Shown here piece after piece: positions 1-53,847 of a stretch of DNA of 64,000 bases; positions within the stretch are counted from its first letter, which is position 1; every line of letters starts with the position of its first letter. The DNA lies in contig JAVKOQ020000032.1 in assembly GCA_031835245.2 (NCBI GenBank), forward strand, positions 1-64,000. Direction: 5' to 3'. Below the pieces are notes generated by a model. The model did not search any database and had not been told where the DNA came from. It saw only the letters and a program-made list of their open reading frames with translations. Source of the stretch: Balamuthia mandrillaris. Its lineage: Eukaryota. The position numbers and the translations under genes are program-made.

Positions 1-3000
1 CCCGTTGGTTGCACCACCACCGCACTTTAGGGTTTTTATTTTGTTTGTTTGTTTGTTAGTTTGTTTGTTTGTTGGTAGCATTTCGTTGGTTGGTTGGTTT
101 GCATTGTAACTTAAGGCTCATATGTTTCCAGTTGCTGCTATTGGTAGCCCAGAGGCCGAAGCTGAGATCCTCAGCAAATTTAACCCCAGCAATCATGCGT
201 TCTTTTTAACCCTTTATCTCTCTTTTCTCTTTTCCTTTTGTCCATCATTGTTATTATGGTTATTGCTGTTGGGGTTATTGGTTTATTTTTTTTGTTTCCT
301 TGTGAGTAACTGAGCCTCTGTGTTTTTCTTTCTACCTACCAACCAACCAACCAACCAACCAACCAACCAACCAACCAACCAACCAACCAACCAACCAACC
401 AACCAACCAGACTCATGGAGAGTACATCTCAGGATAGGTGTCTTGAGCGGTAACACTCGCTTAGCCACACTGCAAGCCTTGCTAAAGGCAAAGCAAGCAG
501 CAGTCAATGCAGCAGCAGCGGCGGCAGCAAGTTCAGCATCGCTATCCCCTGCTGCTGCTGCTGCTGCTTCACTTGGCCTACCTTCATCATCGCAAGAGAG
601 CCCCATGCCTTCTGGTGGGACCATCAACAGCATTCTCTTCACTCCTCCTTCTACTCCACTGAGAACCACAGCTATTGTAGCTGCCTCGCCTACTAGCCCC
701 CCCTCTGCCTCTTCATCAGCTGCTGCTGCTGCTGCTGCTGCTGCCTCTTCTCCTCAGCAAAGGGTGGCAGCAAAGTTGTCGGACAGCGATCTTAACGCGG
801 TGTATCGTTCGGCTAGCGATGTAGTACGGCGTTATCAGCTCGCCGATGAGAACGGCGCATGGTTATCGCCACTTATGCCCATCTACGGTCGATATTTCAA
901 CATTATTCATCTACTGTCACTGCCGGTGCATCAGATTGTGTCCATGGTGGAAGACCCCAACACCAAAGTGAAGCCCCGAGAATGGTCATTTGCAGACACG
1001 TTGCTGAAACTGGCCAATGCCGTGCAACTATCAAAAACTGAGTATGTTCTTCTTTTTATTTATTTGTTTGTTTGTTTGTTTGTTTGTTTGTTTGTTTGTT
1101 TGTTTGTTTTTATATGGCCCTTGGTTATCTGACCTAACTACCTCTCAACTTACTGCTATGTGTATGTGTTGTGTTGTTGCATTGTCAGTGCAATGGATCA
1201 GATTCAAAGCAACAGGGCCTTGAAAGTGGCGCTTGCTGCTGCAGAACATATTTTCGATGAGGCCAAATCAAAGAAAAGCCTACCTCCACGGGAGACGCTC
1301 CCCTATTTTGTGCTCACCAAACAGGATTTGCCAGCAGCTCATGCGAAATCCTTTACACTCAACGCTTTTAGACAAGATCTCTCCCTGGTGGAGCATATGT
1401 CCATCGACGTTATTTCCCAACTGGCAGCAGAGAACCGGGGTCTCATTTCGAAAACCGACTTTCGTCTGCTGCACCCCTTGGCTCCAGCCATCCAGAAGCA
1501 GTTGGTGTTTTATTATTACATTCCCATGGTGGTCAGCCCTCCATCTGAAGTAAATACAGAGCTAAGCAAAACCTTTCTGAGGTTTTGTAGACGCAAGGTC
1601 CGTTTATCATTATCTGTTTGTTTGTTTGTTTGTTTGGTTGGTTGGTTGGTTGGTTGATTGTTTCAATTGGTGGGTGGGTGGGTGGAAGGAAAGTGCTAAC
1701 TCTCGCTTACTTTGGGTGGCTGCAGGCCCAAAACGAGGGAATCATCCAGGAATTGGGTGATATCGTGGCCAATGGCTTACGCTGCCATGGCAGCATCGTT
1801 GAAGGACCCTGGATCGTCAACGGTCTGGAAAATCCACGGTGGAAGTGGCTGGCGCAATCCATTCGCAAGGGTCATTGGGACGTGCTGCATCAGGCCGCTC
1901 TTGGTCTTGACCGTGGCAAAGAAGTCTTGCCGATGGATCCATCGCAACAACAACAACCGTTGGATGCGACTTCCTCCCAGTCCAGCAGCAGCAGCAGCAG
2001 CAGGTTTTATGAGACACCAACTGGAAGTTGGATCCGTAACCTCATTAACGCTGCAGTGTATAGCATTCTGAAGGAGATGCCCTCCTCGGATGAACGGCGC
2101 AACCGCAAAGGACGCGTTTTTCAGGGTTCCTTCACCCGGGAAGAACTGTTGTTAGTATATAGACAACTCCCTCTCGGCCTGCAGAAACTTTTCATGTTAT
2201 TACGGGCCAAAACTATCCAGTATGTTGCTCCTCTTTCGCTTGGTTGCTTGCTTGCTTGCAATGCAAGACATGTTATCCTTGCCACCTCTCTATATTCCCT
2301 TTGCCTGTTTACTCACTCGCTCGCCTCCTTGCTTGCTTGCTTGCTCATAGTGATAGCGCAACACACGAGGAGAATACCCGTTTGCCACCGCTGCGCCAAG
2401 AATGGTTGAACGAGTCATCTTTGGCAGATGCTCTAATGTCAGCTACCCCCTCAAAGCCAACAACGAGCAGCCATCGAACCAAAGTGCAACAAAAGGCGAT
2501 ATTAGCAGGAGGGGAAGAGGAGGAGGAAGAAGAAGAGGAAGAAGGTGAAGAGCAACAACAACAAGAAGAAGAAGCGGCAGTGATGGAGGAAGATCCAGAA
2601 GCCTTCTTATATCCCCCATTGGACGGCCAGCAATTAGAGCAAGCAGCCCGAACGGAAGCGATGGTAGAGAAACAGCATTCCGCCAAGGAAAAGTTGTTCC
2701 AATACCGTATGAAGCTAATCCATTATTGTCCTCCCTTTACGGTGCAAGAAGCCTTGGCAGAGAACGCGTTGAACTTTGCCAGTCTGAAATCCTTGAAAGG
2801 CATGCGCATTTCTACCAGCATCAACCTTTCTGGACCTTTGGAGGATGTCAAGCGGTTGATGCTTGCTGTTCGTCGCTGCTTGGTGAAGGAAGCGCAACAA
2901 CATAATACTCCGCTGGAGTTGGATCCTTTGGATAGAAAGCTCTGGAAGACACGCATTCGTCATCCGGTTCGTTCTCAGCTGGAGCGAGTGTGGCCGCACA

Positions 3001-3393
3001 TCACACTGGAAAAATCCAGCAAACCTGAGCGACGGCGAAGCAAAAGCAAAAGCAAAAGCAGCAGCAGCAGCAGCAGCAGCAGCAAAAGCAAGAACAAGAG
3101 TAAAGCTAGCAGCAGCTCTGCTACCACTAAAGTGCCTGCAGACCAGTTATACAATGCAGCTGCTATTGTGCATGTAAAGGACTTGCCTGAGCTGGATGCT
3201 ATATCACCACTCGCGGCTGATTGGTAAGTTGTTTGTTTATTTGTTTGTTTGTTTGTTTCATAGGAAAGGAACAATTCACCACTCTCTACCAACCTCCTCC
3301 CATTTACTCGCTTTTTAACTTTTTGTCTTTCTTTCTCTCTCTTTTTCTCTTTCTTTCTCTCTCTTTATTTCTCTCTCTTTATTTCTCTCTCTT

Positions 3394-3431
<38 letters not shown>

Positions 3432-5173
3432 TCTCTCTCTCTCTTTCTCTTTCTCTTTCTGTCATTCTCCAGGGATTTACAATATGTGGATCAATTGGAT
3501 AACAAAACATGGCAGCCTATCCATACCACCTCTACCCAAGTCGGCAATACAGAAATGAAGAGGGAGAAGCATCGTGCCAAACGCCATTCTGTTAGGCACC
3601 AAAAAGCCATGGACAAGCTGGCTCAGAAGAGCAGTGAGCTGCAGCAAGACATCTCTGTCGATGCCAGCCCCTGTATAGACTTGACAGAGTTTTTTGGGCC
3701 TGACCTTCGCTCTTTTGCTGCTGTAGACCAGAGTAGTTTGGATGATGCGGAGTTTAATCTCGATGATGGCAGTATCCTGGGTGGTGGTGGTGGTGGTGGT
3801 GGTGGTGGTGGAAGTGGTAGTGGAAATGCTACCTCAGCTGGTGTGTTCGTAGACACAATGGACCTAGCAGCAACAGCAGAAACAGCGCAGCAACAACCAA
3901 GCTCAACAAAGCGCCCAAGAGCTATGTCCTCTTCTGCCTCTTCCTCTCCTGTGACAAGCAAGAAGCCACGGAAAGCGGATGATGATCAACTGTTGTTGGA
4001 AAAAAAGAAAAAAAAGCAACAACAGAAGCAGAAACAGAAGGACAAGGAGAAGCAGAAGCAGAAGCAGAAGCAACAGCAGAAAAAGAAGAAGAAGGAGAAA
4101 GAGAAGGAGAAGGAGAAGCAGAAGCAGAAGCAGAAGCAAAAGCAACAACAGAAAAAGAAAGAGAAGGAGAAGGAGAAGGAACAGGAGAAGGAGAAGCAGA
4201 AACAACAGCAGAAAAAGAAACAAAAGAAGACTGCCACCGAGTCAGAGGAGTCCGAAGCCTCATCCGCATCAGAGGCATCAGATAAGTCGGAGGAGTTTGA
4301 GGCCTCATCTGAGTCAGAGGCATCAGATAAGTCAGTGGAGTCAGGCAAGTCAGAGGAAGAGGAGGAAGAGGAGGAAGAGAAGGAGGAGGAGGAGGAGGAA
4401 GAACCCAAGAAGACAGAGAAGCTTGCAACTTCCACCAAGTCTACTGCTCCTAGCATCAGCAGTAACAGCAGCAGCAGCAGCAGCTCCTCAGATGATGATG
4501 ATGATGAGATTGCCAGTCTCATGAGCCTTGATATCACTAATGTAGCAGGTAAGAGGCGCTCACGTTTGGTGTTACTTACAACAACTCACATATGCACTAA
4601 CCACACTTGCTGGCATGCATGTATACATGCATGCATGCAGATACACGTGATGGTGCTGGAGATAGCAAAACAAAGTCAGATATTCCCAACCAGACAGCTC
4701 CTTCAACAGCTGCGATGGTGGATAAAGATATTGATGATTCCATACTGAGTGTTGGAATGTATGTATTTTTATTTCATTTGTCCATTCGAGTTTGGTTCTC
4801 TATCTGTCCGTCTGTCTGTCCATCTGTCCGTCAGTTTTTCTACTAGCTTTGTGTTTTGTCTCTCTTTTGTTGGTTTACTCGTTTTCTGTTTGTTTGTTTG
4901 TTTGTTTGTTTGTTTGTTTGTTTGTTTGTTTGTTTGTCCTCTTCCTCGTGGTGTTTTTTTTTTGGGCTTTTCAGTTGCAATTCTATGCTTATACAGTGGC
5001 GCTCCGTCGGAGCGGCAGCTTTTTAACTCCAGTTTTGTTCTTATTATTATTTGTATTTCTTGTTGGTTGTCTTTTTGGTGTTGATTGTTTAGCGCTCCAG
5101 CGGAGCGCTATCTTTTTGGAGTTTGTTTGCACTGTTATGCCTTTGTGATTTCTCATTCAAGCCTTACTGATTT

Positions 5174-5205
<32 letters not shown>

Positions 5206-5631
5206 CTAGTATCAAAAAAACCTGCTAATGGCCCAGAGAAACAAGCAGCAGCAGCAGCAGCACAAAATGAAGAAGAGGAGGAGGAGGAAGAAGAACAAGA
5301 AGAAGAAGAAGAAGAAGAAGAAGAAGAAGAAGAAGAAGAAAAAGAAAAAGAAAAAGAAGAAGAAAAAGAAAAAGAAGAACCAAAAGCAGCAGAAGCAGAA
5401 GCTGGCGAAAAAGAAGCAGAAAAACAGAAAGAAGAGGAAAACACAAGTGCTACTAAGAGCCCTAGCAGCAAATCTACGCGCAAGGCTGCAGCTGCTGCTC
5501 AAAAGGCTATTGCTACTGCTGCTGCCAAGTCATCTTTGCAAAGAGCTGCTGCTGCCGTGGCTGCCTCATCTAGCAGTAGCAGCAGAAAAGGAGCCACAAC
5601 TCGTTCACAACGCCGTAACTCAGGCAGGTGA
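1..5631 (+). pseudogene. Large multi-exon gene of the YR element (ParB-like motif; K/E/S-rich C-terminus), 5' end outside the window
   Basis: Phase-consistent GT-AG exons: <1-31, 116-~198, 411-1041, 1189-1597, 1726-2219, 2357-3223, 3473-4548, 4641-~4758, 5210-5631 (TGA). The ~198/411 junction phase is unresolved. A 5-bp deletion at ~4748 relative to copy B (TAGAC) shifts the frame before the last exon. Confidence 0.6.
338..408 (+). repeat. (ACCA)n microsatellite in intron
   Basis: Directly visible tandem tetramer. Similar (GTTT)n, (CT)n and (ATCT)n tracts fill most introns in the window. Confidence 0.95.
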
Positions 5632-5696
5632 TCTCTTCCTCTTTTTCGTTATATTAGTTTGGTTGTTTGAGAGAAAGCTTGAGTTAGTTGATTGGT

Positions 5697-7322
5697 ACAA
5701 CGACAACAACAACTACAACAACAATCATTAGAAAGGACGACCTCTTCTTCTTCTTCTTTTTCTTCTTCTTCTGCTTTTTCTTCTTCTTCTTCTTCTTCTT
5801 GTTCTCCTTCTTCTCCTCCTCCTTCTTCTTCTTCTTCTCTCCCTTCTTCTCCTCCTTCTTCTTCTTCTTCTTCATCTTCTTCATCTTCTTCTTCTTCTTC
5901 TTTGTGTTCTTCTTCTTCTTCTTCTTCTTCTTCTTCTTCTTCTTTTTCTTTTTCTTCTTCTTCTGCTTTTTCTTCTTCTTCTTCTTCTTCAAATTCAGAG
6001 TCCTTTGTCTTTGAGAACAATGATGGTGATGTTATGGATAGCGGTGATGACAGTAATTTATCATCATCATCATCATCATCATCATCCTCATTAAGAGGAA
6101 GAAGAGGAGGAGTAGAAACAGATATAGATGCAACAAGCAAAACAACAACTCCACCAACATTGATAGATTTGTTGTTGTTAACTGAAGACGAAGAAGAAGA
6201 TGAAGAAGAACAAAAAGAAGAAAAACAAGGAAAAAAGAGAAAAATAGAGAAACAACAAAATAGAGCTAGAACAAAGGATGATACTGATGACGATACTACA
6301 CATGATAGCAGTAGTAGTAATGGTGGTGGTGATGGTGGAGGAAGACGTCTTTCTCGTGCTATCACATTGATGAACCGTTTGACAGAAGAGCGGTGGACAG
6401 AGTTGACGGCAGTGACGAGTCGATGGAGCCCTTCTACCCAACGTAAACATGCCTGGACTTTGGCCATCTGGGAAGCACATTGTGGGCATCATAAATGTTT
6501 GCCAGCTCTTCCTTTGAATCTCCAACGTCATAACGTAGGAGCCTTTGTTCAATGGTTGATTTTGGATGTGGGTTATGCCTTGAGCTCTGTGCGCGATGTC
6601 ATGATTGCCAGTCTTTATCGTTTGCATGATGAAAGTATCCAACAACAGCTTGACTCCCTTTCTGCATCCTCCTCCTTCTCCTCTTCCTCCTCCTCCTCCT
6701 CCTCCTCCTCTGTTTCCTCCATGATCTCTTCGTCTCCAGCATCATCATCACCTACCACTTCTCCTCCTCCTTCTCCTTTATGCAGAACCATTCTTGGTGA
6801 TGGTGTCACTTGAGCAGCCACAACAGGAGCGACAGGACGCACTACAGCATTGACGGCAACCTCAGACCATGCTTACTTGTTGTTGCTAAAAAACCAAATG
6901 GATGCCATCAAAGATCAAGTCAAACAGGCCATTCGGCATTGCAAAAGAGCCAAACCCTCCTGTTCTAGCAAACAATTGTGCAAAGACGCATGTTTGTTAG
7001 ATGATGTCTTACATATCATCGCATCCACTCCAGATGGACTGGTGAGCAAAGCTGGTGAAGCCAGTTGTTGGTTACACAGTGTTTGTACTGGTGCCAGAGC
7101 CATTACAGCTGCAAACATTCGTTTGGGTGATATTGTGGCATTTCGACCTAAACTTTCATCCTCCTCTTCCAACAACAACAACAATGGCAACCTCAGCTGC
7201 CATCACCAAGAGGATGCATTTTCTGCTCCTCCTCTTTATTTCCTTTCGTTGCGCCAACAAGTCACCAAAGGAATACCAAATCATTGGAATCATGTCGTTA
7301 CATTTGAAGGTTATTTAACACC

Positions 7323-7354
<32 letters not shown>

Positions 7355-8347
7355 TATCATCACGAGGATCATCTTCTTCACCATCACCATCATCATTATC
7401 ATCACCACTTAGCACCGTCACTGCTACGACCTCCGCTGCCGCCGCTGCCACCACCGCCGCCGCCACATCAACAACATCAACACCAAGCATTTGTCTTGGA
7501 GATTTTATTTACTGGTTAAACAAGCATCTGTTATGCAAGCATGGTTTGGATTTGCGCGAGTTTCACAACTGGCGCTTAACGGATGCACAAAAACAAACAT
7601 CATTATGGGGATGGTCACGCGATACTTTAAATGCCAAGTTGCAAGATCGGGCTGTTCGGGCTGGTTATCCTGAAGGATTGTTTTCCTTTCACTCCTTGCG
7701 TGCTGGCTTCCTTTGCACTGCCTTGATCTTGGAGGGACTGCAGGAAGGTCACAGTCAGAACAATGTACTGGATACTACTGCCCTTATCGCAGGTTGGGTA
7801 CCTCGTGGTAGATCCCAGCAAGTCTACGTCAAGGATACATTAAAACGTGCTATTGTGGCCAATCGCTTGGTCAGCAATGTTACTACTCATCCTCATTCTT
7901 CTTCTTCTTCTTCTTCTTCTTCTTCTTCTTCGTCATCTTCATCCTCTGTTGCAACTACCACTGCTGATTATCATCCTCCTCGACATTGCGGTTCGTTACT
8001 GCTCATCTGATTTTTGTTTTTTCTTTTGTTTTTTCTTTGGCTGGGCTGGCTGCCTGACCAGCGTCAATAAACCACTACCACCATCACCACCACCATCACC
8101 ACTACCACTTGATGGACTGACTTGCTCTCTTTTTGGTTCTTTTCATCCTCACTCCCTTGCATGCATACAGTTATTGCGCCAGAGCTAGTTACCAAAGAAG
8201 CATTTCACAATCTATCCCCAGATGCTTTGCAACAATCCAACTGGTCTGCAGATACCAACTATCAGAGTTTTATTCATGCTGTTCGCCAACGGTTTGTTTG
8301 TGTGTTGTTTGTTTGTTTTGTTTGCATAGTATCCACCACCATCACCA

Positions 8348-8403
<56 letters not shown>

Positions 8404-9581
8404 TTATTTATCTATCCAGTCAGTCATGGCTTGTTTGTTTGCTTGCTTGCTTGCATTCAAAAATGCACCCTTAGACCTAGCGCTCAGCTAGAACGCACAG
8501 GTTTATTGTGGCAGCAGCAACATTCATAGTCTAAACAATAATTGTTATGATTGGTCTTGGTTCATTTGTTCTTCTTTTGGCATTCACTCACACTTTGTTT
8601 TTTGTCTCTTTTCCCTTTTTCTTTCTTTCCCTCTTTCTTTCTCTCGCTTTCTCTTTCTCTTTCTCTTGTTCTTTCTTTCTTTCTCGCTTTCTCTTTCTTC
8701 GTTTACACTGCTTCTTTAGGTGGTTCATGAAACAAACAGATTTGCCAACCAAAGATCAACAAATACGATTTTATCGCTCCTTGTGGCTTGAATGTTGTAC
8801 CGCTTGGGTAGAAAATCATCCAGATGAGTTTGATAAGGATGTGCTAGCTGAAGCTGCAGCCACCTATAAGGCCAAAAACAAATCCCCTCTTCGTTGGCCC
8901 AATATTCATCGCCAGCTGTGCCGTCAACACATCTCTGGCATTCTACAAAGCTTTTTCAGTGGCTTGAATGAGCTGGTGGATGAGTTTGTAGCTCCTATAC
9001 TTCCCAAGTTGGTCAATGGATCGCCCATTCACAAAGCATTCCTCACCCCTCGTCAAGAGCAATCATCTTCCTCACTTGCTTCTCTCGACAATGACAATGA
9101 CAAGAGTCCTGACTCAAAAAAACAAACACCACGACGACAACAACTTCGCAGAGCACTTCAGCGACAACAATTGTTATCCAGTCGACTCAAATATCGGAAG
9201 AATGGCCATCAGCAACGAATCGCTTGGCAGGCACCAGAAATCCGTAGACTTGTCACTTGGTGCTTGCGTGATGAATGGTCTTGGTTGGAGATTGCCAAAC
9301 ACTTGCCTACCCAACGTCGAACCAACAATGATTGCTATGATAAATGGCGCAATCTCCTCACAGAATTCTCCAACAATCTGGACGCTTTGAAGGCCAAATA
9401 CTTGGTGGCCCACGATGAGGACTTTGACAAATCGGATGATGATGATAATGACAACACTTCCTCCCCATCATCATCTCCTACTTCTACTACCACTACAGTT
9501 ATATCCATCTTGGATGAAGAGGAAGAGACAGAGGAGAATGATGATGATGATGATGATGATATTATGATTATATCTTGTTAG
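5697..9581 (+). pseudogene. Tyrosine recombinase-Myb fusion, copy A (one in-frame TGA at 6811; 5' part deleted)
   Basis: N-terminal core-binding-like segment WSPSTQRKHAWTLAIWEAHC. Catalytic set: TGAR (R), VTKG (K), HSLRAGF (HxxR), AGW, QQVY (Y). Introns 7991-8170 and 8292-8719 are phase-consistent. C-terminal Myb W-x-W-x-DKWRNL at 9225-9359. Confidence 0.8.
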
Positions 9582-9731
9582 ATTATATAGTCATTCCTAT
9601 ACAAAAATTGAAAAAATTGCTACTTTGACCCACTTTATCCGTTAGACTTATAGACTTAGAGTTTTATAGAATGGACCATGGGGAGTTGAATGCCGTAGGT
9701 TCTGAGTACCCGCCCCTAACCCTACCAAAGT

Positions 9732-11939: not shown

Positions 11940-11950
11940 GAGGGGGAGTA

Positions 11951-12185
11951 TGTTGGTAAAATCACCAACACTTATCTCAAGACTCCTCATGTTGGATCCG
12001 TCCCGGACCCTCAGCTCTCCTTTCTTTTGTATCCTCCATCCTTCCCTTCTCCCTTTTCCCTTTTCTCTCGGTGTACTTTGAAGCAACATCGGAGATTCAC
12101 TCCCGTTGTCCTTCCTCTATTCTCTTGAATACACTTCTTGTCTCATCACCGACTCTTTTATTCTTGAGGTTGGATTCAACCAACA
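11951..12185 (+). repeat. 3' LTR of Gypsy family 1 (235 bp)
   Basis: Begins TGTTGGT just after the PPT and ends ACCAACA (7-bp terminal inverted repeat). The sequence after it resumes the (CT)n intron of the YR-element gene. Only one LTR is present, so it cannot be cross-checked. Confidence 0.8.
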
Positions 12186-12208
12186 TTTCTCTCTCTCTCT
12201 CTCTCTTT

Positions 12209-12241
<33 letters not shown>

Positions 12242-12256
12242 TCTGTCATTCTCCAG

Positions 12257-14638: not shown

Positions 14639-14673
<35 letters not shown>

Positions 14674-15072: not shown

Positions 15073-15463
15073 TGTTGGCAACTGCCAACATAACCAACTC
15101 TTTCTTCATTTCTTTCTTCATTTCTTTTCTCTTTTCTGTCAACAATCTCACATCAGCTATCATCAATCTTTTATGTTGACACCAAGCCATTCCAAAGATC
15201 TTTCTCCTGCCTTCCCTGGAACTTTCCCGAGCCTAGAACTTAAGAACAAAGAAACCAAGAAGTCACTCCCCAACCCCGAGCCCCTTTCCTTCCTTGGTTG
15301 CCTTCTCAACTATAAATACTTTTCCCACAACCAAGAACAGACAGATGAATGAACAAAGAAACAAGACACTCACAAACACACTTGTTTTCTTCCTCTCATT
15401 AAATACATTTGGCTCCCATCTTTCTCTTGGTTCCTGTCTTGGTTCTATGCTCAGGTTCTAACA
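15073..15463 (+). repeat. 5' LTR of Gypsy family 2
   Basis: Direct repeat of 20481-20871; TGTT...AACA ends; TATAAAT inside. Confidence 0.96.
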
Positions 15464-15493
15464 TTTTTTTTTGACAAGTCAAACCATTTGGTG

Positions 15494-18400: not shown

Positions 18401-20480
18401 AAGCAGTTGCAATCCTTCCTCGGTTTTGCCAACTTTCTACGGCCTTTCATCCCTCGTTTTGCATGCCTTATGGCTCCTCTTGACGCTCTTCGATATGTCC
18501 ATGATCTCTGACCCTTCTGGACTGCTGATTGTCAAGCTTCTATTGATGCTCTTTGTTGCATCCTCAGTTCGCCTCCTGTCTTGAGCATTCCTGCTCCTGA
18601 TCTCCCTTTTCTTGTTGGAACTGATGCCTCCCAGAATGGTGTTGGTGCTGTTCTCTACCAAGAGACCCCGGACAAGCAACATCGCTACATTGCCTTTGCT
18701 AGCCGTGCACTCAACGATGCCCAGTGCAACTATCCGGCTATGAAACGTGAGCTTCTTGCCGTTGTCTTTGCTCTTCTGCAATTTCAGTGCTGGCTTTATG
18801 GTTGCTGCTTTACCCTTTTCACTGATCACAAGGCTCTCACTTATCTCTTCACTTCCAAGCACTCCAATTATATGCTTAACAACTGGGCCTACATCATCCT
18901 TGAGTACAACTTCGATGTTGTCCATCATCCTGGAATCAAAATGATCCTTGAAGACTGCCTCTCTCGACTCTATCCAAAGAATTTTTGGGAAGAGGATGGT
19001 TCAGCTGGTCTAACCAGGCCGATAATCCCTCAATCTGCAAAAACTCTGACTCCTAAGACCTCCTCATCTTCATCTTCTGCCTTGTCTGCACCTGAGTCAT
19101 CTTCCCTCTCATCTCTTTTTCAGATTGAGCTTGATCAGTTTCCTCCTTCTTCTCTGTCAAAGGATCTTTCTGCCTTTATCAAGACTTTCCACGATAAGAC
19201 TGCCCCCTCATTGGAACAACAACAAGAACTTCTTCAAAAGTTTCACTCTGAAACTCATGAAGGTGCCTCCCATATCTTCAATTGAATTTGGAATGAAGGA
19301 TACTTCTGGCCTTCTCTCTGCTCTGACTGTCACTTTGTCACGTGCTCTTGTGATGCTTGCCGACGCTTCAATGTGGCTAAACATGGCTTTCATCCTTTGA
19401 AGACCATTGCTGCTACTTATCCATTTGACCACATTGCTATCAACCTCTTTGGCCCTCTTCCTTCTGACAAACATGGCTTTTCCTATGTGATGGTACTAGT
19501 TGATATGGCCACTCGCTTCACTCTTCTTCAACCTCTCTCTAACAAAAGCGCTCTTGCCACTGCTCAAGTTCTATACCAGTTTATCTGCAATTTTGGTTTT
19601 CCCAAAATCATTCAATCAGATAATGGTACAGAGTTTGCCAATGCTGTATTGACCGCTTTCAAGAACCTAGCTGGATTTGACCATCATTTCATCTCCTCGT
19701 ATCATCCCTGAGCTAACAGTGCTGCTGAGAGTCACGTTAAACTAGCCAAATCTCTTCTCTTCAAACTTCTCAACAGTGACTGGTCCTCCTGGTCTACAGA
19801 AAGGTATCAACAATTGCTACACCTCTCGTCATTGTTCCTCTCCCTTCGAGCTCTTCTTCGGTCGTCCCTCAAACCCGCCAGACAACTTTTCTTCTTCTAC
19901 CTCTTCACCGCTCTCCCCTGAAGAACGTCAAAAGCAGATTATTGACCTTCGCTCTCTTGTTTGGCCTTCTGCTGCCTCCGCCACTGAAGAATATAATGAC
20001 AAGATTGCTGACTCATTCAACAAGAAAGCTCCTCTTGTTTCCTTTGCTCCTGGTGACACTGTAATGCTTGTAAACTCTGGTGCTAACGCCAAAACTGATC
20101 CCAAGTACCTTGGTCCTTTCTGAGTCATTGAACGTACCTGTCACGGTGCTTACCGCCTAGAAGATCTCACCAGTCAACCTGTTCCTGATACGGTTCCACC
20201 TTCCCTCTTGAAGAAAGTTGATCCACCAAAGCCGCTTTCTTCCCCTTCCTCTTCTTTGGACTCCGCTGATCCTGCTTTGAAACGCTATGAGGTTCACTTC
20301 ATCGTTAATCATCATGGTTCTGCCCGCAACCGTGAGTATCTAGTCCGCTGGAAAGGCTACAGCCCTGGAGGTGACTCCTGGGAACCTCCAAGTCACTTCA
20401 ACGACCCCCGCACTATTGACAATTATTGGAAACATATGCGTAAGAAAGGTAAAATCGCCTCTTCACGGAGGAGGAAGTGA
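15494..20480 (+). pseudogene. gag-pol: Single-frame gag-pol with many nonsense codons and one frameshift (~19790)
   Basis: ORF pieces 15488-19711 share one frame. Zinc knuckles CKVHKMFGHNTSDC and CYNCNQKGHYSNEC; protease LDTGAS; RT PWNSP, YIDD; RNase H TDASQNGVGAVL; integrase SDNGTEF; chromodomain YLVRWKGY. Confidence 0.93.
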
Positions 20481-20871
20481 TGTTGGCAACTGCCAACATA
20501 ACCAACTCTTTCTTCGTTTCTTTCTTCGTTTCTTTTCTCTTTTCTGTCGACAATCTCACGTCAGCTATCATCGATCTTTTATGTCGACACCAAGCCATTC
20601 TGAAGATCTTTCTCCTGCCTTCCCTGGAACTTTCCCGAGCCTAGAACTTAAGAACAAAGAAACCAAGAAGTCACTCCCCAACCCTGAGCCCCTTTCCTTC
20701 CTTGGTTGCCTTCTCAACTATAAATACTTTTCCCACAACCAAGAACAGACAAACAAATGAACGAAGAAACAACACACTCACAAACACACTTGTTTTCTTC
20801 CTCTCATTAAATACGTTTGGCTCCCGTCTTTCTCTTGGTTCCTGTCTTGGTTCTATGCTCAGGTTCTAACA
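20481..20871 (+). repeat. 3' LTR of Gypsy family 2
   Basis: Direct repeat of 15073-15463. Confidence 0.96.
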
Positions 20872-20875
20872 CACT

Positions 20876-22726
20876 CAGTCATTCATTCACCAAGCAGTTT
20901 TTGGATCATTATTTGTTAAAAACACCACCACCAGCTACTGTTGTTGCTTCTGCTCCTGTTATTGTTGTTGATAATCCTGCAGAGCTCTTTTCACCTCCTC
21001 TGTTTTCTGCATCACCCTTTTCATCCACTACTACCACCATTACTCCCACTTCATCATTTACTCAATCACAACCACAACAACTACAACGACAACAACAACT
21101 ACAACAACAATCGTTAGAAAGGACGACCTCTTCTTCTTCTTCTTTTTCTTCTTCTTCTGCTTTTTCTTCTTCTTCTTCTTCTTCTTCTTCTTCTTGTTCT
21201 CCTTCTTCTCCTCCTCCTTCTTCTTCTTCTTCTCTCCCTTCTTCTCCTCCTTCTTCTTCTTCTTCTTCATCTTCTTCATCTTCTTCTTTTTCTTCTTCTT
21301 CTTTGTGTTCTTCTTCTTCTTCTTCTTCTTCTTCTTCTTCTTCTTCTTCTTTTTCTTCTTTTTCTTCTTCTTCTGCTTTTTCTTCTTCTTCTTCTTCTTC
21401 TTCAAATTCAGAGTTCTTTGTCTTTGAGAACAATGATGGTGATGTTATGGATAGTGGTGATGACAGTAATTTATCATCATCATTATCATCATCCTCATTA
21501 AGAGGAAGAAGAGGAGGAGTAGAAACAGATATAGATGCAACAAGCAAAACAACAGCTCCACCAACATTGATAGATTTGTTGTTGTTAACTGAAGATGAAG
21601 AAGAAGATGAAGAAGAACACAAAGAAGAAAAACAAGGAAAAAAGAGAAAAATAGAGAAACAACAAAATAGAGCTAGAACAAATGATGATACTGATGACGA
21701 TACTACACATGACAGCAGTAGAAGTAATGGCGGTGGTGATGGTGGAGGAAGACGTCTTTCTCGTGCTATCACATTGATGAACCGTTTGATAGAAGAGCGG
21801 TGGACAGAGTTGAAGGCAGTGACGAGTCGATGGAGCCCTTCTACCCAACGTAAACATGCCTGGACTTTGACCATCTGGGAAGCACATTGTGCGCATCATA
21901 AATGTTTGCCAGCTCTTCCTTTGAATCTCCAACGTCATAACATAGGAGCCTTTGTTCAATGGTTGATTTTGGATGTGGGTTATGCCTTGAGCTCTGTGCG
22001 TGATGTCATGATTGCCAGTCTTTATCATTTGCATGATGAAAGTATCCAACAACAGCTTGACTCCCTTTCTGCATCCTCCTCCTTCTCCTCTTCCTCCTCC
22101 TCCTCCTCCTCTGTTTCCTCCATGATCTCTTCGTCTCCAGCATCATCATCACCTACCACTTCTCCTCCTCCTTCTCCTTTATCCAGAACCATTCTTGGTG
22201 ATGGTGTTGCTCGAGCAGCCACAACAGCAGCGACAGGACGCACTACAGCATTGACAGCAACCTCAGACCATGCTTACTTGTTGTTGCTAAAAAACCAAAT
22301 GGATGCCATCAAAGATCAAGTCAAACAGGCCATTCGGCATTGCAAAAGAGCCAAACCCTCCTGTTCTAGCAAACAATTGTGCAAAGACGCATGTTTGTTA
22401 GATGATGTCTTACATATCATCACATCCACTCCAGATGGACTGGTGAGCAAAGCTGGTGAAGCCAGTTGTTGGTTACACAGTGTTTGTACTGGTGCCAGAG
22501 CCATTACAGCTGCAAACATTCGTTTGGGTGATATTGTGGCATTTCGACCTAAACTTTCATCCTCCTCTTCCAACAACAACAACAACAATGGCAACCTCAG
22601 CTGCCATCACCAAGAGGATGCATTTTCTGCTCCTCCTCTTTATTTCCTTTCGTTGCGCCAACAAGTCACCAAAGGAATACCAAATCATTGGAATCATGTC
22701 GTTACATTTGAAGGTTATTTAACACC

Positions 22727-22760
<34 letters not shown>

Positions 22761-24961
22761 TCACGAGGATCATCTTCTTCACCATCACCATCATCATCAT
22801 CACCACTTAGCACCATCACTGCTACAACCTCTGCTGCTGCCGCCACCACCGCTGCTGCCACATCAACAACATCAACACCAAGCATTTGTCTTGGAGATTT
22901 TATTTACTGGTTAAACAAGCATCTGTTATGCAAGCATGGTTTGGATTTGCGCGAGTTTCACAACTGGCACTTAACGGATGCACAAAAACAAACATCATTA
23001 TGGGGATGATCACGCGATACTTTAAATGCCAAGTTGCAAGATCAGGCTGTTTGGGCTGGTTATCCTGAAGGATTGTTTTCCTTTCACTCCTTGCGTGCTG
23101 GCTTCCTTTGCACTGCCTTGATCTTGGAGGGACTGCAGGAAGGTCACAGTCAGAACAATGTACTGGATACTACTGCCCTTATCGCAGGTTGGGTACCTCG
23201 TGGTAGATCCCAGCAAGTCTACGTCAAGGATACATTAAAACGTGCTATTGTGGCCAATCACTTGATCAGCAATGTTACTACTCATCCTCATTCTTCTTCT
23301 TCTTCTTCTTCTTCTTCGTCATCTTCATCCTCTGTTGCAACTACCACTGCTGATTATCATCCTCCTCGACATTGCAGTTTGTTACTGCTCATCTGATTTT
23401 TGTTTTTTCTTTTGTTTTTTCTTTGGCTGGGCTGGCTGCCTGACCAGCGTCAATAAACTACCACCATCACCACCACCACCACCACTACCACTTGATGGAC
23501 TGACTTGCTCTCTTTTTGGTTCTTTTCATCCTCACTCCTTTGCATGCATACAGTTATTGCTCCAGAGCTAGTTACCAAAGAAGCATTTCACAATCTATCC
23601 CCAGATGCTTTGCAACAATCCAACTGGTCTGCAGATACCAACTATCAGAGTTTTATTCATGCTGTTCGCCAACGGTTTGTTTGTGTGTTGTTTGTTTGTT
23701 TTGTTTGCATAGTATCCACCACCATCACCACTATCTATCATCTATCTATCTATCTATCTATTTATTTATCTATCCAGTCAGTCATGGCTTGTTTGTTTGC
23801 TTGCTTGCTTGCATTCAAAAATGCACCCTTAGACCTAGCGCTCAGCTAGAACGCACAGGTTTATTGTGGCAGCAGCAACATTCATAGTCTAAACAATAAT
23901 TGTTATGATTGGTCTTGGTTCATTTGTTCTTCTTTTGACATCCACTCACACTTTGTTTTTTGTCTCTTTTCCCTTTTTCTTTCTTTCCCTCTTTCTTTCT
24001 CTCGCTTTCTCTTTCTCTTTCTCTTTCTCTTGTTCTTTCTTTCTTTCTCGCTTTCTCTTTCTCTCTTCTTCTTCGTTTACACTGCTTCTTTAGGTGGTTC
24101 ATGAAATGAACAGATTTGCCAACCAAAGATCAACAAATACGATTTTATCGCTCCTTGTGGCTTGAATGTTGTACCGCTTGGGTAGAAAATCATCCAGATG
24201 AGTTTGATAAGGATGTGCTAGCTGAAGCTGCAGCCACCTATGAGGCCAAAAACAAATCTCCTCTTCGTTGGCCCAATATTCATCGCCAGCTGTGCCGTCA
24301 ACACATCTCTGGCATTCTACAAAGCTTTTTCAGTGGCTTGAATGAGCTGGTGGATGAGTTTGTAGCTCCTATACTTCCCAAGTTGGTCAACGGATCACCC
24401 AATCACAAAGCATTCCTGCTCACCCCTCGTCAAGAGCCATCATCCTCCTCCCTTGCTTCTCTTGATGATGATGATGACAAGAGTCCTGACTCAAAAAAAC
24501 AAACACCACGACGACAATGACTTCGCAGAGCACTTCAGTGACAACAATTGTTATCCAGTCGACTCAAATATCAGAAGAATGGCCATCGGCAACGAATCAC
24601 TTGGCAGGCACCAGAAATCCGTAGACTTGTCACTTGGCGCTTGCGTGATGAATGGTCTTGGTTGGAGATTGCCAAACACTTGCCTACCCAACGTCGAACC
24701 AACAATGATTGCTATGATAAATGGCGCAATCTCCTCACAGAATTCTCCAACAATCTGGACGCTTTGAAGGCCAAATACTTGGTGGCCCATGATGAGGACT
24801 TTGACAAATCAGATGATGATGATAATGACAACACTTCCTCTCCATCATCATCTCCTACTTCTACTACCACTACAGTTATATCCATCTTGGATGAAGAGGA
24901 AGAGACAGAGGAGAATGATGATGATGATGATGATGATGATATTATGATTATATCTTGTTAG
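20876..24961 (+). pseudogene. Tyrosine recombinase-Myb fusion, copy B (several stops; 5' region split by Gypsy-2)
   Basis: Same motifs as copy A (TGAR, HSLRAGF, AGW, DKWRNL). Stops at ~23007, ~24107, ~24518, ~24539. Confidence 0.8.
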
Positions 24962-25100
24962 ATTATATAGTCATTCCTATACAAAAATTGAAAAAATTGC
25001 TACTTTGACCCACTTTATCCGTTAGACTTATAGACTTAGAGTTTTATAGAATGGACCATGGGGAGTTGAATGCCGTAGGTTCTGAGTACCCGCCCCTAAC

Positions 25101-28100
25101 TAGCTATGATGACGACGATAACAACAACAGGGACAGCAGCAACTGCGGACGACGTCACCATCACTGCCACCTCTGCTGCTGCTCCTCTAACCCCTTCAGT
25201 GGGTTTTCCTCGAATGTCTGCTCCACCACTACCACCGTCATCATCGTCCTCCTCCTCATCGTCATCATCATCTTCTCTACCACCACCACGTCATGGTCAG
25301 CTACAGCAACAGCAACAACAGCAACAGCTGTGCTGAAACGCTAGACGAGCCATGAAGCTGGTGGAGAACAACCTGCTCTCCAAGGCTCTGCTGACGCTTA
25401 CCTCCGCTGAGAGCGCCCCGGTGGACCAGGACACGGTGGACAAGCTCCAAGCCCTCCACCCGCCGAACCCCAGGGACAGGGACAGCGAGTGGCCCTTGCC
25501 TCCGCCCACCCACCCCATCAACTTCTGGCCAGAGGACCTGCTCAACATCCGCCGAGTGGAGAAGGCCGTGGATGCTCTGCCCCGAGGTGTTGCCGCCAGT
25601 CCCTCTGGGTGGACCTACGAGATGATCAAGACTGCCAAGGTGCACGGCAGCAGCAGCGTGGCCACAACAGCAGAGGAGAGCTTCCTCATGCTCCTCCTGG
25701 AAATGGCCAAAGGGGTGGCGTGCGGCACACTGGGCCTGCGTGACTCCTTGACAGCCTCCAGGCTGGTGGCCCTGCGCAAGCCTCCTCCTGGCCAGAATGG
25801 AGTACGACCCATGGCGGTGGGCGAGACCTTCCTCCGCCTCTTCGGCAGAGTACTCTTGGCCGCGGACCCCAACATGAAGCCAGAGCATGTGAGCCAGTAC
25901 GTGGGACCCTGCCAGTTTGGAGTCGGCATCCCAGGAGGGGCCGAGATCCCTGCTCACGCCATCCGCGAGCGCTTCATGGTCGGAAGGACCTCCATGGTCC
26001 TCTCTACGGACCTCTCCAATGCCTACAACGCCATCTGCAGGGTCCACATCGCGCAGCAGCTGTGCCTCCAGGCTCCCAACTACTACGCCTTCTTCACATG
26101 GAGCTACAGAGAGGACTCCCCACTCTACCTCAACGCGGCCTTTCGGGACCAGGTGGGCACCTACATCCTCCCCTCTCAGGCAGGAGTGAGGCAAGGGGAC
26201 GTCCTCGGCCCTTTCTTCTTCTCCGTGGGCATCAGCAGCATCCTGGAGGCCTTGCGTCGCTCCCCAGAGTGCCAGGGCACCACCACCTTTGGCTACATTG
26301 ACGACATCAACCTGGACTTTGCCTCTGGCCACGATGCCGCATGGGAGCAGACCACCCTCTCCACCGTTATGCACATCATCGAGACAGAAGGAAGAGACAT
26401 TGGCCTGGTCCTCAACCATCGAAAGTGCAAGCTATGGCTCCCTCACCTTCCCTTACCACCATCGTCACCTTCTTCTTCTTCTTCTTCTTCTTCTTCTTCT
26501 TCTTCTTCTTCTTCTTCTTCTTCTTCTTCTTCTTCCTCGAAGGACAACTATGATGATGACGAGAAAGAGAAGGAGGAGGAGGAGGAACAGCAACAACAGT
26601 GATGGCAAGAAAAGAGGAAAGAAAAGGAGAAAGAGAAAGAAGTAACGGTAGTGATAGGAACAGAGGAAGGGGAGGAGGAGAATGATGAGGCGATGGCAGT
26701 GGAGCAGTTATTATCACCACCATCATCATCACCACCACTGCTACCATCCATGCTGCCGCCACAGCGACTGCTAGAGTCCTGGATGGCAGTGCTCTCTGAG
26801 GAGGAGCTAGACGTCACCAGAGCTGGCCTAAAGATCCTTGGAGTCCCGGTGGGCACCCCAGAGTTCATGGGCAACTATGTTGAGCAGATCCTGAGAGAAA
26901 AAAGCGGCAAGATCTTCCAGACCCTGGCCTTCAGCCCAGCAGAGGTCCCGCCAGAGATCATGCCCCTCCAAGCTCACATGCTTCTTGTTCGCCAGTGCTT
27001 GGCCTCTGTCCCTTCCTTCTGGCTGCGCACCGTGCCCCACTGTCATCGATATGTAACAGAATGGGACGAGTCCATCTGTATGACTGTGGCGCAGCTCCTG
27101 AGGACTAACATCCCGCCTGGCAGCCTCCAAGAGAGCATCCTGCGTACGCCCATTCGCTTGGGAGGATTCGGACTCAGGGCCAGCGCTCGTTCCAAAGGGA
27201 TTGCCCCCTACGCGTTCTCTGCTTCTCTCATCTCAGCAGCCAAGTACCTCACCTTGCAACAACAACAAGCATCCCCTCCGCCGCCGCCGCCACCGCTACT
27301 ACCACCTAGAAGAGAAGGAAGAAGAGGAGGAAGAAGAGGAGGAGGAACTGCTGCTGCTGCTGCTGCTGCCGCCACTACAGCAATGGATGATGATAGCAGC
27401 AACAACAACAACCACCACCATCATGGGGACTTCCTGTGCTCAAGCAATAGCATTGACATCCTGGCTTCTGTCCATGAGGATATCGAGAAAGCAGAAGTCC
27501 TGGACACTACTGTCACCCCAGTGGACTGGTTGGACGCCATGAGGATCACAGGCAGCTTCCCGCCCAACCTCGAACGAGCCAAGACCCAGGGAGCGCAGAA
27601 GAGGATGTTTGCTCTTCACGAGCAACAAGCCTTTGAGCGTCTTCGAGATGTTCACTGTCCTACAGCCCTTCGCCCAGCCTTTCTGGAAGCGGTCTCCCAG
27701 GGCACCAGTTGGTGGATGCAAGTGGTCCCCAGCTGTCCAGATCTCCTCATCAAGGACGACCTTTACTTGGTGCTGGCCAAGCTCAAGCTCATGGAAAGCC
27801 CCAGCCAGGCGCACACAACCTGTCCCCTTTGCTGTGTGAACCTCAGCGATGCGATCACTCACTGCCTCTCCTGCCCATCTTTGTCTCTTCTTCGAACTGC
27901 CCGACACGATGCGCTGGTAAAGCAGCTGTGGAACATCCTCAGACCTCATGAGCAAGTCCTCCATGAGCACACTCTTACCTTTTCTTCTTCTTCTTCTTCG
28001 TCGTCTTCTGCGACTGCCACTGCTGCTGCCACTACTAGCAGCAGAAGACGACGTTTAGCCTCTCTGCGAGCAGACCTCTTCTTGCAGGCTCGAGCTGAGG

Positions 28101-28800
28101 CCATTGACTGCTCCATCACGGCCTGGCGAAGCAAAGCTCCACCCTCTCCGCCTCTGACCTCCATGAAGGACGTGCTTCAAGATGCCTTTAACAGGAAGCA
28201 AACCAAGTACGGGCCAGCCATTCGAGCCAGGGCCATCTCCACAGTACTTCCCTTCATTATGAGCAGCCTTGGAGCAATCAAACACTCGGCCAAAAAGTTC
28301 CTTCGTACTTATGGGCTGCAGCAAGTAGTCACTCGCAATCCCCTCTTTGCTTCCAAGTACCAAGCTCGCAACCTCACAACTCTAGCAACACATGTGGCCA
28401 AAGGCACAGCGCTCATCATGTTGGCTTGGAAGGCTTGCACGCAGCTTCGAGGTTCGACACATTGGCAGCTACAACACCAACAGAGCACTTCTAGACAACA
28501 CAGCCTACACGCTTACTATCACAGTTGAAAGACAAGTCCATACTCGCTTCACAAGGAATGAAAGGTCCTTACTCTTTGCTCTTCTCCTCATACTTGTTTC
28601 TTCATCTTCTTTTCTTCTTCCTTTTCTTCTTTCTTCCCTTCTACCTGTATGTTTGTTGCAACACTTCAAGCACATCTTACATACATATAGCATGCCCTTA
28701 GTCTTAGGACTTGGGCCGTGGATGTATAACTCAACAGCTTGTTACTAAGCAGTGATGTGAGTCACTGACTTAGCTTTGGTTCAAAATAAAGTTCGAGGTT
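25101..28800 (+). mobile_element. 5'-truncated non-LTR retrotransposon, CRE-like clade with restriction-like endonuclease
   Basis: Single long frame, then a ~270-bp 3' UTR with AATAAA at 28785-28790. The 3' boundary is approximate. Confidence 0.8.
25106..28528 (+). pseudogene. RT-zinc knuckle-RLE polyprotein with two in-frame TGA (25334, 26600)
   Basis: ORFs 25106, 25352 and 26651 are in one frame. RT motifs RPMAVGETFLRL, QFGVG, DLSNAYN, GVRQGDVLGP, YIDD, LGVPVG, PIRLGGFGL; CPLC..HCLSC..RHD; RADL..D..KQTKY. Confidence 0.88.
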
Positions 28801-28803
28801 AAA

Positions 28804-28828
28804 CCCTAACCCTTAACTCTAATCCTAA
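28804..28828 (+). repeat. Degenerate telomere-like repeats CCCTAA-CCCTTAA-CTCTAA-TCCTAA
   Basis: Four tandem near-CCCTAA units directly after the non-LTR element 3' end. Confidence 0.55.
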
Positions 28829-29437
28829 CATTATATTATAAAACTTAATTCTAAGCTCAAAATCAAGCATAGAACACTAAACTTAATTTATTTTAAAGTG
28901 AAAAGCACAAGTGATGTGTTAAAAAGGGTGAATAACATGAATGGATGGAGTCAAAATATATTATTCAAAGAGGAAACAAGGGCACAAAGAGTGTTAAGAG
29001 GGAAAAGTATGGTGTGAATGAAACAAAACTAACTAATTAAAAGAAAGGGAAGGAAACAACAGAATAAAAGGAAGAAGTCTAGTGATGTGGGAGCAGGCAA
29101 TTGGTGTGTGTCACAAATGGCAATAAATAGGAAAGGAAAGAAAAGGTGCAATGGAACTAATATGTTGAGAGTAATATTTTGTGTTTTATTGTAAGTTGTT
29201 TTGAGAGAAAAAGAAGAAAAAGCAAGGAGGGATAGTAGTTAAACTAGAAGAATTATCTGAAAAGAAAAGCAGAGAATATTAGCATAAAATGGCAAAGAGG
29301 AAAAAGGAGAATTTGGACATCAAGAGGTTTCCTTAAATTGATAAGCAAGAAGGAGAGGTTGACAGGAAGAGAAGACGAGTACTAAGTCATTGGCCTAAGG
29401 CAAGGCTAAAGTATCATTAATAAAGCAAGTTTTATTA

Positions 29438-41670: not shown

Positions 41671-41709
<39 letters not shown>

Positions 41710-53811: not shown

Positions 53812-53847
<36 letters not shown>

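What the first reader, a model, noticed from the sequence alone, without database searches (positions are those of the whole stretch)
1..28830. Uniformly oriented, nested or serially added element stack resembling a left subtelomere
Seen: all five insertions (YR-A, Gypsy-1, YR-B, Gypsy-2, CRE-like) lie on +. Three are cut on their left side, and the block ends at degenerate CCCTAA repeats where host genes begin. Two models fit. In Russian-doll nesting (A in Gypsy-1 in B in CRE), the missing 5' halves should lie upstream in mirror order. In serial terminal breakage and addition, they should be absent and a telomere should lie upstream.
Basis: partly seen in the sequence, partly recalled or inferred. 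Interest (0 to 1): 0.7.

Follow-up and report, generated by a model that had tools for sequence, protein, structure and literature searches.

The report
Nested transposons with telomere-like ends
In an amoeba genome, five mobile elements are stacked, most likely inside one another, and two are copies of an apparently undescribed recombinase-carrying DNA transposon whose own end likely mimics the host's telomere repeat, so the telomere-like sequence here does not by itself show a chromosome end.

Summary
The stack is real. In a Balamuthia mandrillaris-like amoeba, bases 1-28830 hold two copies (A, B; 2.3% apart) of a multi-copy, intron-bearing element encoding a Cre-fold tyrosine recombinase with a C-terminal Myb domain, two chromodomain Gypsy elements and a 5'-truncated CRE-type LINE, all on +. 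Nesting fits best: Gypsy-2 in B is shown (CACT duplication, empty sites in reads); Gypsy-1 ends in a whole LTR inside a B intron; B is more decayed than A. Shared orientation is not significant (1/16). The CCCTAA at 9714 and 25094 likely belongs to the recombinase element itself: sister-family gene models read through the same end into a host Ras gene, and relatives in an oxymonad and in metagenomes show telomere-repeat peptides at their ends (4 of 150; shuffles 0.09). The degenerate tract at 28802-28829 is real and flanks the CRE as in MoTeR/FoTeR, either as B's tail or as an old telomere relic. A subtelomeric position is possible but untested: nothing upstream of base 1 could be read. The nest is ordinary; the telomere-ended YR-Myb family is the find.

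The parts
1..9724 (+). YR-Myb element copy A (right part; runs off the window's left edge); lacks 979 bp at 5695 that B has
   Evidence: 139 substitutions in 6092 aligned columns to B; gap of 979 at A 5695
1..5628 (+). Passenger gene 1 of the element, multi-exon, unknown function (approximate limits)
   Evidence: P0034 on another contig matches 1193-3221 at 76-98% per exon; no Pfam or Atlas assignment; B-copy bins are multi-copy in reads
5696..9581 (+). Tyrosine recombinase + Myb gene of copy A, with introns; 5' part lost in the deletion, TGA at 6811-6813; catalytic motifs R 7087, K 7261, HxxR 7687, W 7789, Y 7819; Myb near 9204-9360
9706..9724 (+). Right terminus of A, GTACCCGCCCCTAACCCTA, telomere-like
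   Evidence: same end in B; an X1 contig of depth 306 follows A to 9724 then diverges; X9 contigs give a different, Gypsy-coding sequence before 9725; sister gene models read VPAPNPNPN / VLAPNPNPK
9725..12185 (+). Gypsy-1 (chromodomain Ty3/Gypsy), 3' half: pol 9726-11939 without stops, PPT 11940-11949, 3' LTR 11951-12185
   Evidence: LTR start confirmed by loose ends in 20 X1 contigs at 11951
12186..25102 (+). YR-Myb element copy B (left part missing; right end at 25100 or 25102), interrupted by Gypsy-2; recombinase gene with stops
   Evidence: 66 AT-ward alleles in B against 31 in A, p=4.9e-4
15073..20871 (+). Gypsy-2, full length and decayed: LTRs 15073-15463 and 20481-20871, gag, protease, RT, RNase H, integrase, chromodomain-like tail; 4-bp target duplication CACT
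   Evidence: 9 stops in 1483 codons plus a frameshift; empty-site joints in X1 and X9
25086..25102 (+). Right terminus of B, GTACCCGCCCCTAAC(TA)
25101..28801 (+). CRE-type non-LTR retrotransposon, 5'-truncated: RT, CCHC finger, RHD..E..RAD restriction-like endonuclease, two in-frame TGA; AATAAA at 28785
   Evidence: homologue cluster includes an Acanthamoeba RT protein
28802..28829 (+). Degenerate telomere-type tract, about 4.5 CCCTAA units
29438..30571 (-). First host gene, ODR4-like (3' exons)
   Evidence: Pfam PF14778

Best explanation
This is most likely a Russian-doll nest of transposons built on a recombinase-carrying DNA element whose own right end likely mimics the telomere repeat. Order of events: (1) copy B of the YR-Myb element landed beside the ODR4-like gene (inferred); (2) Gypsy-2 inserted into B (shown); (3) Gypsy-1 inserted into a B intron (clean LTR end shown, 5' half inferred to lie upstream); (4) a younger, internally deleted copy A was inserted into Gypsy-1's RT, probably moved in trans (inferred). 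The element would move like a Crypton: the Cre-fold recombinase would excise a circle and integrate it, using ends made of inverted telomere-type repeats, which its Myb domain may bind (inferred, untested). The CRE-type LINE likely targets CCCTAA repeats as MoTeR/FoTeR do; it either entered B's repeat tail, being 5'-truncated by ordinary incomplete reverse transcription, or was already there as an old telomere relic that B hit (about even odds). Chromosomal position is undetermined.
For: Gypsy-2: CACT duplication and empty-site joints at depth 2486 in X1 and 295 in X9, against 54-65 for single CRE pieces in X1 (depth is only a rough guide to copy number). Gypsy-1's right end is a whole LTR with PPT and CA end abutting B sequence collinear with A, with no telomere repeat at that joint. 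A and B end at the same base and other copies follow the end to 9724; Gypsy-1 relatives have coding sequence (H-Y-I-D-V-L-A-V-I-S) where A sits. Age order fits: B 66 vs A 31 AT-ward alleles, 43 vs 13 at CpG; Gypsy-2 9 stops, Gypsy-1 none in 737 codons. Recombinase: R-K-H-R-W-Y present in 110-121 of the 110-122 non-gap rows of 123, fold matches Cre (E 6.7e-6) and phage-integrase/DUF3435 models. Ends: P0019 reads ..LRVPAPNPNPN straight into profile position 75 of a host Ras domain, P0020 ends ..VLAPNPNPK, the window frame reads VPAPNP; Blattamonas P0102 is P0190 broken off at GRR by VRVRVRVRATYS while the reverse of A's end reads RVRGGYS; P0030 is a self-insertion starting GLGLG; 4 of 150 family representatives carry such 5-mers in their terminal 40 residues, none internally, shuffle mean 0.09, 0 of 2000. 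FoTeRs have one degenerate motif such as CCTAAC at the 5' side and 3-7 TAACCC at the 3' side (PMC12857005, passages), the pattern seen here.
Against: The missing left halves were not seen; no genome is held. No left end of any copy was read as DNA, so target duplications and inverted ends rest on back-reading of predicted proteins, with no matched background set (genes predicted at contig ends or beside real telomeres could give the same peptides). The 28-bp tract has 3 changes, more than B-like decay predicts (p 0.008-0.026 at 1.5-2.3%), which argues that tract and CRE are older than B, or that tails are degenerate by nature. B's end also reads as A's end minus two C, which would put B into the CRE. 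The Myb domain scores no better against TRF/TBP1 telomere proteins than against c-Myb repeats. Junctions 9720 and 12185 were not seen spanned in the listed pieces.
Confidence: 0.62

Rival explanations
1. Serial terminal addition at a left chromosome end: the CRE plus tract is a former telomere (MoTeR-relic type); the end broke repeatedly, was healed with a few CCCTAA repeats, and YR-Myb copies were joined on at those repeats, so the left halves are lost and a telomere lies upstream.
For: CRE 5' end points left with telomere repeats at its 3' end, the orientation of MoTeR/FoTeR and their relics (10.1101/845669, PMC8381367, PMC12857005, passages). Both A and B meet truncated sequence through CCCTAA. 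Tract looks older than B. Balamuthia telomeres are TTAGGG and chromosomes many and small (113 T2T contigs, 66.3 Mb; 10.1101/2025.02.25.640156, passages); mobile elements are enriched near ends in Acanthamoeba (PMC12210455, passages). The P0019 and P0102 read-throughs cannot tell insertion from capture.
Against: The Gypsy-1/B joint is a whole LTR end with no repeat, so that cut is an insertion. The bases just before the repeat (GTACCCGC, VPAP/ YS spacing) are conserved across families and between an amoeba and an oxymonad, and P0030 shows an element's left end starting with TTAGGG-type repeats, the reverse of a real telomere. Core genes (ODR4, RhoGEF, BAG, UBC) start 600 bp from the tract. Orientation is not significant.
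Confidence: 0.22
2. Chimeric junctions: misassembly between repeat copies or ectopic recombination/deletion joined pieces of A, Gypsy-1 and B that were not nested.
For: All families are highly multi-copy and full of microsatellites; the 12185 joint lies in a TC repeat; no listed read piece spans 9720 or 12185. Assembly contig is only 296,259 bp.
Against: Each joint falls exactly on a biological terminus (LTR end; element end shared with other copies), and the joined partners share no homology; the 25100 joint lies in a 0-difference contig of single-copy depth.
Confidence: 0.08
3. A Dictyostelium-style centromeric cluster: recombinase elements and chromodomain Gypsy elements pile up in one heterochromatic block that serves as centromere.
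For: D. discoideum centromeres are about 49% DIRS (a YR retroelement) with Skipper enriched, at chromosome tips (PMC2665215, abstract and passages). Both Gypsy elements here carry a chromodomain or chromodomain-like tail. CpG is depleted in B and Gypsy-2 (o/e 0.23-0.46 vs host 0.75).
Against: Sister-family copies are fused in gene models to ordinary host genes (P0019, P0026), so the family is not confined to one block; the same paper says other social amoebae lack such centromeres; only 29 kb seen.
Confidence: 0.08

Closest known systems
Crypton DNA transposons (CryptonF/S/A/I; PMC3212892, PMC13465315, passages)
   Same: Eukaryotic DNA element with an intron-bearing tyrosine recombinase and a C-terminal DNA-binding domain, no RT seen, sometimes a second gene
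   Different: C-terminal domain is Myb, not GCR1_C or DUF3504 (no such Pfam hit); Cryptons are described with 4-6-bp direct repeats and no inverted ends, whereas this family likely has telomere-repeat ends; over 10.7 kb long
Starship elements (DUF3435 captain)
   Same: Large YR element with passenger gene; Atlas model aligns to a DUF3435 protein at TM 0.72
   Different: No DUF3435 Pfam hit; recombinase is the last gene at the right end, not the first (captain position recalled); hosts are amoebae and oxymonads, not ascomycetes
TATE of Leishmania and telomere-inserting nimaviruses (PMC6681497, PMC10871703, passages)
   Same: Tyrosine recombinase elements associated with telomere repeats
   Different: TATE is a retroelement with RT/RNase H and nimaviruses are large viruses; both insert INTO host repeats, while these copies meet non-telomeric targets (Gypsy RT, Ras gene, their own gene) and seem to carry the repeat
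TBE transposons of Oxytricha (PMC3558436, passages)
   Same: Transposon ends bearing the host telomere repeat
   Different: TBE uses a DDE transposase (recalled), not a YR; repeat orientation here appears inverted relative to a true telomere
MoTeR1 / FoTeR / Cnl1 telomere-targeted CRE-type LINEs and MoTeR relics
   Same: RT + CCHC + RHD/E/RxD endonuclease; 5' truncation; one short motif at the 5' side, several repeats at the 3' side; LTR elements insert in the arrays
   Different: Here single, decayed, flanked by a YR element; amoeba host; telomeric position and tree placement untested
Chromodomain Ty3/Gypsy (chromovirus/Skipper type)
   Same: gag-PR-RT-RH-IN-chromo order, TG..CA LTRs, PPT, target duplication
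   Different: Nothing notable; 4-bp duplication; two families 54% identical over 532 aa

Membership tests
Tyrosine recombinase superfamily | Catalytic R-K-H-R-H/W-Y | tested here: met
Tyrosine recombinase superfamily | Core-binding plus catalytic fold | tested here: met
   AlphaFold model of relative P0010 with 123-row alignment, pLDDT 79.5; Foldseek top hits Cre, TMt about 0.65; Atlas
Crypton | YR without RT/RNase H | tested here: inconclusive
   none in the 10.7 kb seen, crude motif test 0 of 171 family proteins; left part of the element not seen
Crypton | 4-6-bp direct repeats at both termini, no inverted ends | not testable with these tools
   no left end as DNA; protein read-throughs hint at inverted telomere-type ends instead
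Crypton (F, A) | GCR1_C or DUF3504 domain | tested here: not met
   Pfam on window ORFs and 22 proteins gives Myb, one Phage_integrase hit, no GCR1_C/DUF3504
DIRS/Ngaro/VIPER/TATE | RT and RNase H in the element, split or inverted long repeats | tested here: not met
   not in A or B as far as seen; introns in the YR gene; caveat: left part missing
Starship | DUF3435 recombinase as first gene | tested here: not met
   no PF11917 hit; YR is the right-most gene; only fold likeness
Telobox (TRF-type) Myb domain | Closer to TRF1/TRF2/TBP1 than to other Myb repeats | tested here: inconclusive
   profile: c-Myb repeats 30-35 bits each, TRF2 29; single domain: MYB21 20, TBP1 18, TRF2 17.8, c-Myb 17; likeness of the recognition helix to the telobox signature is recalled
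Chromodomain Ty3/Gypsy | RT-RH-IN order with chromodomain, TG..CA LTR, PPT, target duplication | tested here: met
   (duplication testable only for Gypsy-2)
CRE-type RLE non-LTR element | RT followed by CCHC finger and RHD..E..RxD endonuclease | tested here: met
   motif set as in PMC12857005 Fig. 1B legend
MoTeR/FoTeR-like telomere-targeted LINE | 3' end joined to several telomere repeats, short motif at the 5' side | tested here: met
   28802-28829 and 25094-25100
MoTeR/FoTeR-like telomere-targeted LINE | Other copies lie in telomeres; groups with MoTeR1 in an RT tree | not tested
   no genome held; no MoTeR protein among the 11 hits
Subtelomere | Long terminal (CCCTAA)n within tens of kb upstream | not testable with these tools
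   no such tract in the window; upstream DNA unavailable

The most novel reading that the evidence does not exclude
A widespread, undescribed group of protist DNA transposons (Amoebozoa, oxymonads, hundreds of metagenomic lineages) uses a Cre-like recombinase fused to a Myb domain and ends made of inverted host telomere repeats as its recombination sites. Each insertion plants telomere-like tracts inside chromosomes, which attract telomere-specific LINEs and could seed breakage and healing, linking these elements to the many small chromosomes of Balamuthia.
Probability: 0.33. Interest if true: 0.8.

Novelty: new variant of a known kind. Interest (0 to 1): 0.55.

Why it matters
The nest itself is common. 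The recombinase family is not: 753 representatives at E<=0.001, mostly invisible to Pfam's integrase models, and five literature searches (plus 89) listed no paper describing YR-Myb elements in amoebae or oxymonads; the library lacks most subscription journals and Repbase, so this is not proof of absence. If the ends are telomere repeats read by the element's own Myb domain, this is a new solution to end recognition in eukaryotic YR transposons, a caution for anyone reading short internal CCCTAA tracts as old telomeres, and a directly testable source of interstitial telomeric sequence.

Tried and rejected
Whole genome: none held, so the upstream test is open. Pfam and PDB sequence searches missed the recombinase; structure found it. 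A single-sequence fold was useless (pLDDT 36). A metagenome scan with the 17-base end motif gave 11 loci, all chance matches in unrelated DNA, 0 of 11 with a tblastn hit to any of 189 session proteins. Scans for DNA of relatives found none in viral contigs or prokaryote genomes. RNA: no RNA holder listed; 143 reads of X15 laid from about 3 in 100 of the run, mostly under 95% alike, no intron joints listed: no evidence either way on expression. Holes in CRE cover in X6 and X9 prove nothing. Reads were laid on 9100-28590 only, so the tract and the A deletion at 5695 were not checked with reads. Passenger gene 1: Atlas scores under 0.8, no assignment; the source label 'Carbonic anhydrase' on P0034 has no Pfam support. 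Helitron rejected: YR, no Rep/helicase, no A-T insertion site. A recalled likeness of the CRE 3' end to MoTeR's could not be verified in the text read (relic table is an image, supplements not opened). Earlier scan findings: none returned. Uniform orientation as evidence: rejected, 1/16.


Full report
Source and setting. Homologues at 87-91% identity are labelled Balamuthia mandrillaris; the window's own CRE protein lies on a 296,259-bp contig. No genome is held, so nothing upstream of base 1 could be read. From 29.4 kb on the window holds ordinary host genes (ODR4-like, RhoGEF-PH, BAG, CH-LIM, deaminase, Macro, UBC, TPX2). Balamuthia telomeres are TTAGGG and its chromosomes many and small, and its transposons are said to await annotation (10.1101/2025.02.25.640156, passages).

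Observation. Self-BLAST gives A 3406-9720 against B 12188-25100 in three blocks and the two Gypsy-2 LTRs. A and B differ at 139 of 6092 aligned columns; A lacks 979 bp at 5695. Gypsy-1 is a stop-free 737-codon RT-C/RNase H/integrase/chromodomain frame with PPT and one whole LTR, 11951-12185. Gypsy-2 is complete, decayed (9 stops in 1483 codons, a frameshift), with LTRs 16 of 391 apart and CACT duplicated. The last element has RT, CCHC and RHD..E..RAD motifs and lacks the N-terminal block of its homologues. The tract at 28802-28829 scores 40 against 20-32 for the best hit in 30 shuffled windows; a 12-base pattern with 2 mismatches gave 6 hits against 2.36 expected, 2 of 100 shuffles reaching 6. 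Five elements on one strand has probability 1/16 (own arithmetic).

Reads. Four of 18 listed runs were laid on 9100-28590. Copies of the element without Gypsy-2 appear as joints in X1 (depth 2486 plus 634) and X9 (295), against 54-65 for single CRE pieces in X1, so the family has tens of copies (rough; the tool warns that depth is not copy number). Twenty X1 contigs break at 11951, the LTR start. X9 contigs give a Gypsy-coding sequence before 9725 that differs from the window, and an X1 contig of depth 306 follows A to 9724 and then leaves, so CCCTAACCCTA belongs to the element side of the joint. One X1 contig with no differences covers 25076-26042, only 25 letters left of the joint, and X1 may be the source sample. 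Only 24 of 5773 pieces were shown; none spans 9720 or 12185.

The recombinase. Pfam and PDB sequence searches were blank. A profile of 8 sequences found 753 representatives at E<=0.001, best 150 listed. In a 123-row alignment of these, R, K, H, R, W, Y are kept in 121/121, 121/122, 117/117, 118/118, 111/111 and 110/110 non-gap rows. A model of relative P0010 (pLDDT 79.5) matches Cre best; the Atlas agrees. A single Myb repeat ends the protein. Named members come from Balamuthia, Monocercomonoides and Blattamonas; of 27 proteins looked up the rest were unnamed metagenome or MAG records. Both window copies are broken. The window family carries a second multi-exon gene of unknown function (P0034), making the element at least 10.7 kb.

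The ends. Gene models that overrun the end of a sister family (about 50% identical) read LRVPAPNPNPN directly into the middle of a host Ras domain (P0019) and VLAPNPNPK (P0020); the window reads VPAPNP at both copies. In Blattamonas, P0102 equals P0190 up to GRR and then reads VRVRVRVRATYS; the reverse strand of A's end reads RVRGGYS. P0030 has its own start interrupted by GLGLG, the start of another copy; P0006 reads PNRLGLGLG there, which could be a right-left junction (speculative). Of the 150 representatives 4 have a telomere-repeat 5-mer in their terminal 40 residues and none internally; shuffles give 0.09, 0 of 2000 reaching 4. These are predicted proteins, not DNA, and no matched background set was available; all scans for DNA of relatives failed. 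I conclude that the repeat is likely the element's own end, TTAGGG-first at the left and CCCTAA-last at the right, the reverse of a real telomere. Whether the Myb domain binds it is open: it scores about equally against c-Myb and TRF-type domains.

Order of events. B carries 66 AT-ward alleles against 31 in A (p=4.9e-4; 43 vs 13 at CpG), and Gypsy-2 is more decayed than Gypsy-1, as nesting requires, though serial addition predicts the same order. The Gypsy-1/B joint is an integrase-type end without any repeat, so B's left part existed when Gypsy-1 arrived. The B/CRE joint is ambiguous: CCCCTAAC, CRE, then AACCCTAACCCTTAACTCTAATCCTAAC is the flank pattern of FoTeRs (PMC12857005, passages) and would rebuild a family-type tail for B; but the tract has more changes than B's age predicts (p 0.008-0.026) and B's end also reads as A's end minus two C, which favours an older MoTeR-type relic (10.1101/845669 and PMC8381367, passages) hit by B.

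Comparison. It works like a Crypton (PMC3212892, PMC13465315, passages) but fails the GCR1_C/DUF3504 test and its ends seem different; it is not a Starship, DIRS or TATE by the tests possible. Telomere-linked YR elements are known (TATE, PMC6681497; nimaviruses, PMC10871703; passages) but they insert into host repeats; telomere-bearing ends are known in ciliate TBEs (PMC3558436, passages). YR plus Gypsy clusters at chromosome tips are centromeres in Dictyostelium (PMC2665215, abstract and passages). A Halocafeteria preprint (10.64898/2026.07.28.741278, passages) added nothing specific. Searches listed no description of this family; only listings were seen for papers not named above, and no supplements were opened.

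Verdict. Observation confirmed. Nesting 0.62, serial terminal addition 0.22, chimera 0.08, centromeric block 0.08. A subtelomeric location remains possible under nesting too. Interest 0.55, carried by the telomere-ended YR-Myb family rather than by the stack.

Noticed in passing
window 53025-55515 (-): Harbinger/PIF-type DDE transposase (PF13359, E 1e-17) among host genes; an 11-bp inverted pair at 53930/55515 may or may not be its ends.
   Followed up: partly
window 35185-45238 (+): Very long coiled-coil RhoGEF-PH gene, over 3000 codons, with strong purine skew.
   Followed up: no
window 59616-60518 (-): 21-bp tandem repeats coding YDGGD-type heptads, weak match to the Pcf11 RFEG repeat.
   Followed up: no
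window 55704-56034 (-): 6/12/18-bp GAAGCC-type tandem array.
   Followed up: no
window 14232-14877: Segment of B missing from A: long spacer or intron with (ATGG)n and (GAAA)n, opposite in strand bias to the other introns; whether gene 1 and the recombinase are one transcript is unknown.
   Followed up: partly
window 15464-15500: Gypsy-2 5' LTR is followed by a T run rather than an obvious tRNA primer site.
   Followed up: no
P0002, P0027 (other Balamuthia loci): Gene models in which one YR-Myb family runs into the C-terminal part of another, suggesting these elements nest in each other elsewhere too.
   Followed up: no
P0133: Family member fused to a ubiquitin hydrolase (UCH) domain and a second integrase hit, recalling the peptidases carried by some Cryptons.
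   Followed up: no
P0053, P0122, P0194: Family members in NCBI short contigs, one labelled as a bacterial MAG; probably eukaryotic contamination.
   Followed up: no
window 25733-26042: A second CRE-like copy about 90% identical exists in run X1 (depth 145), so the LINE family has a few copies.
   Followed up: no
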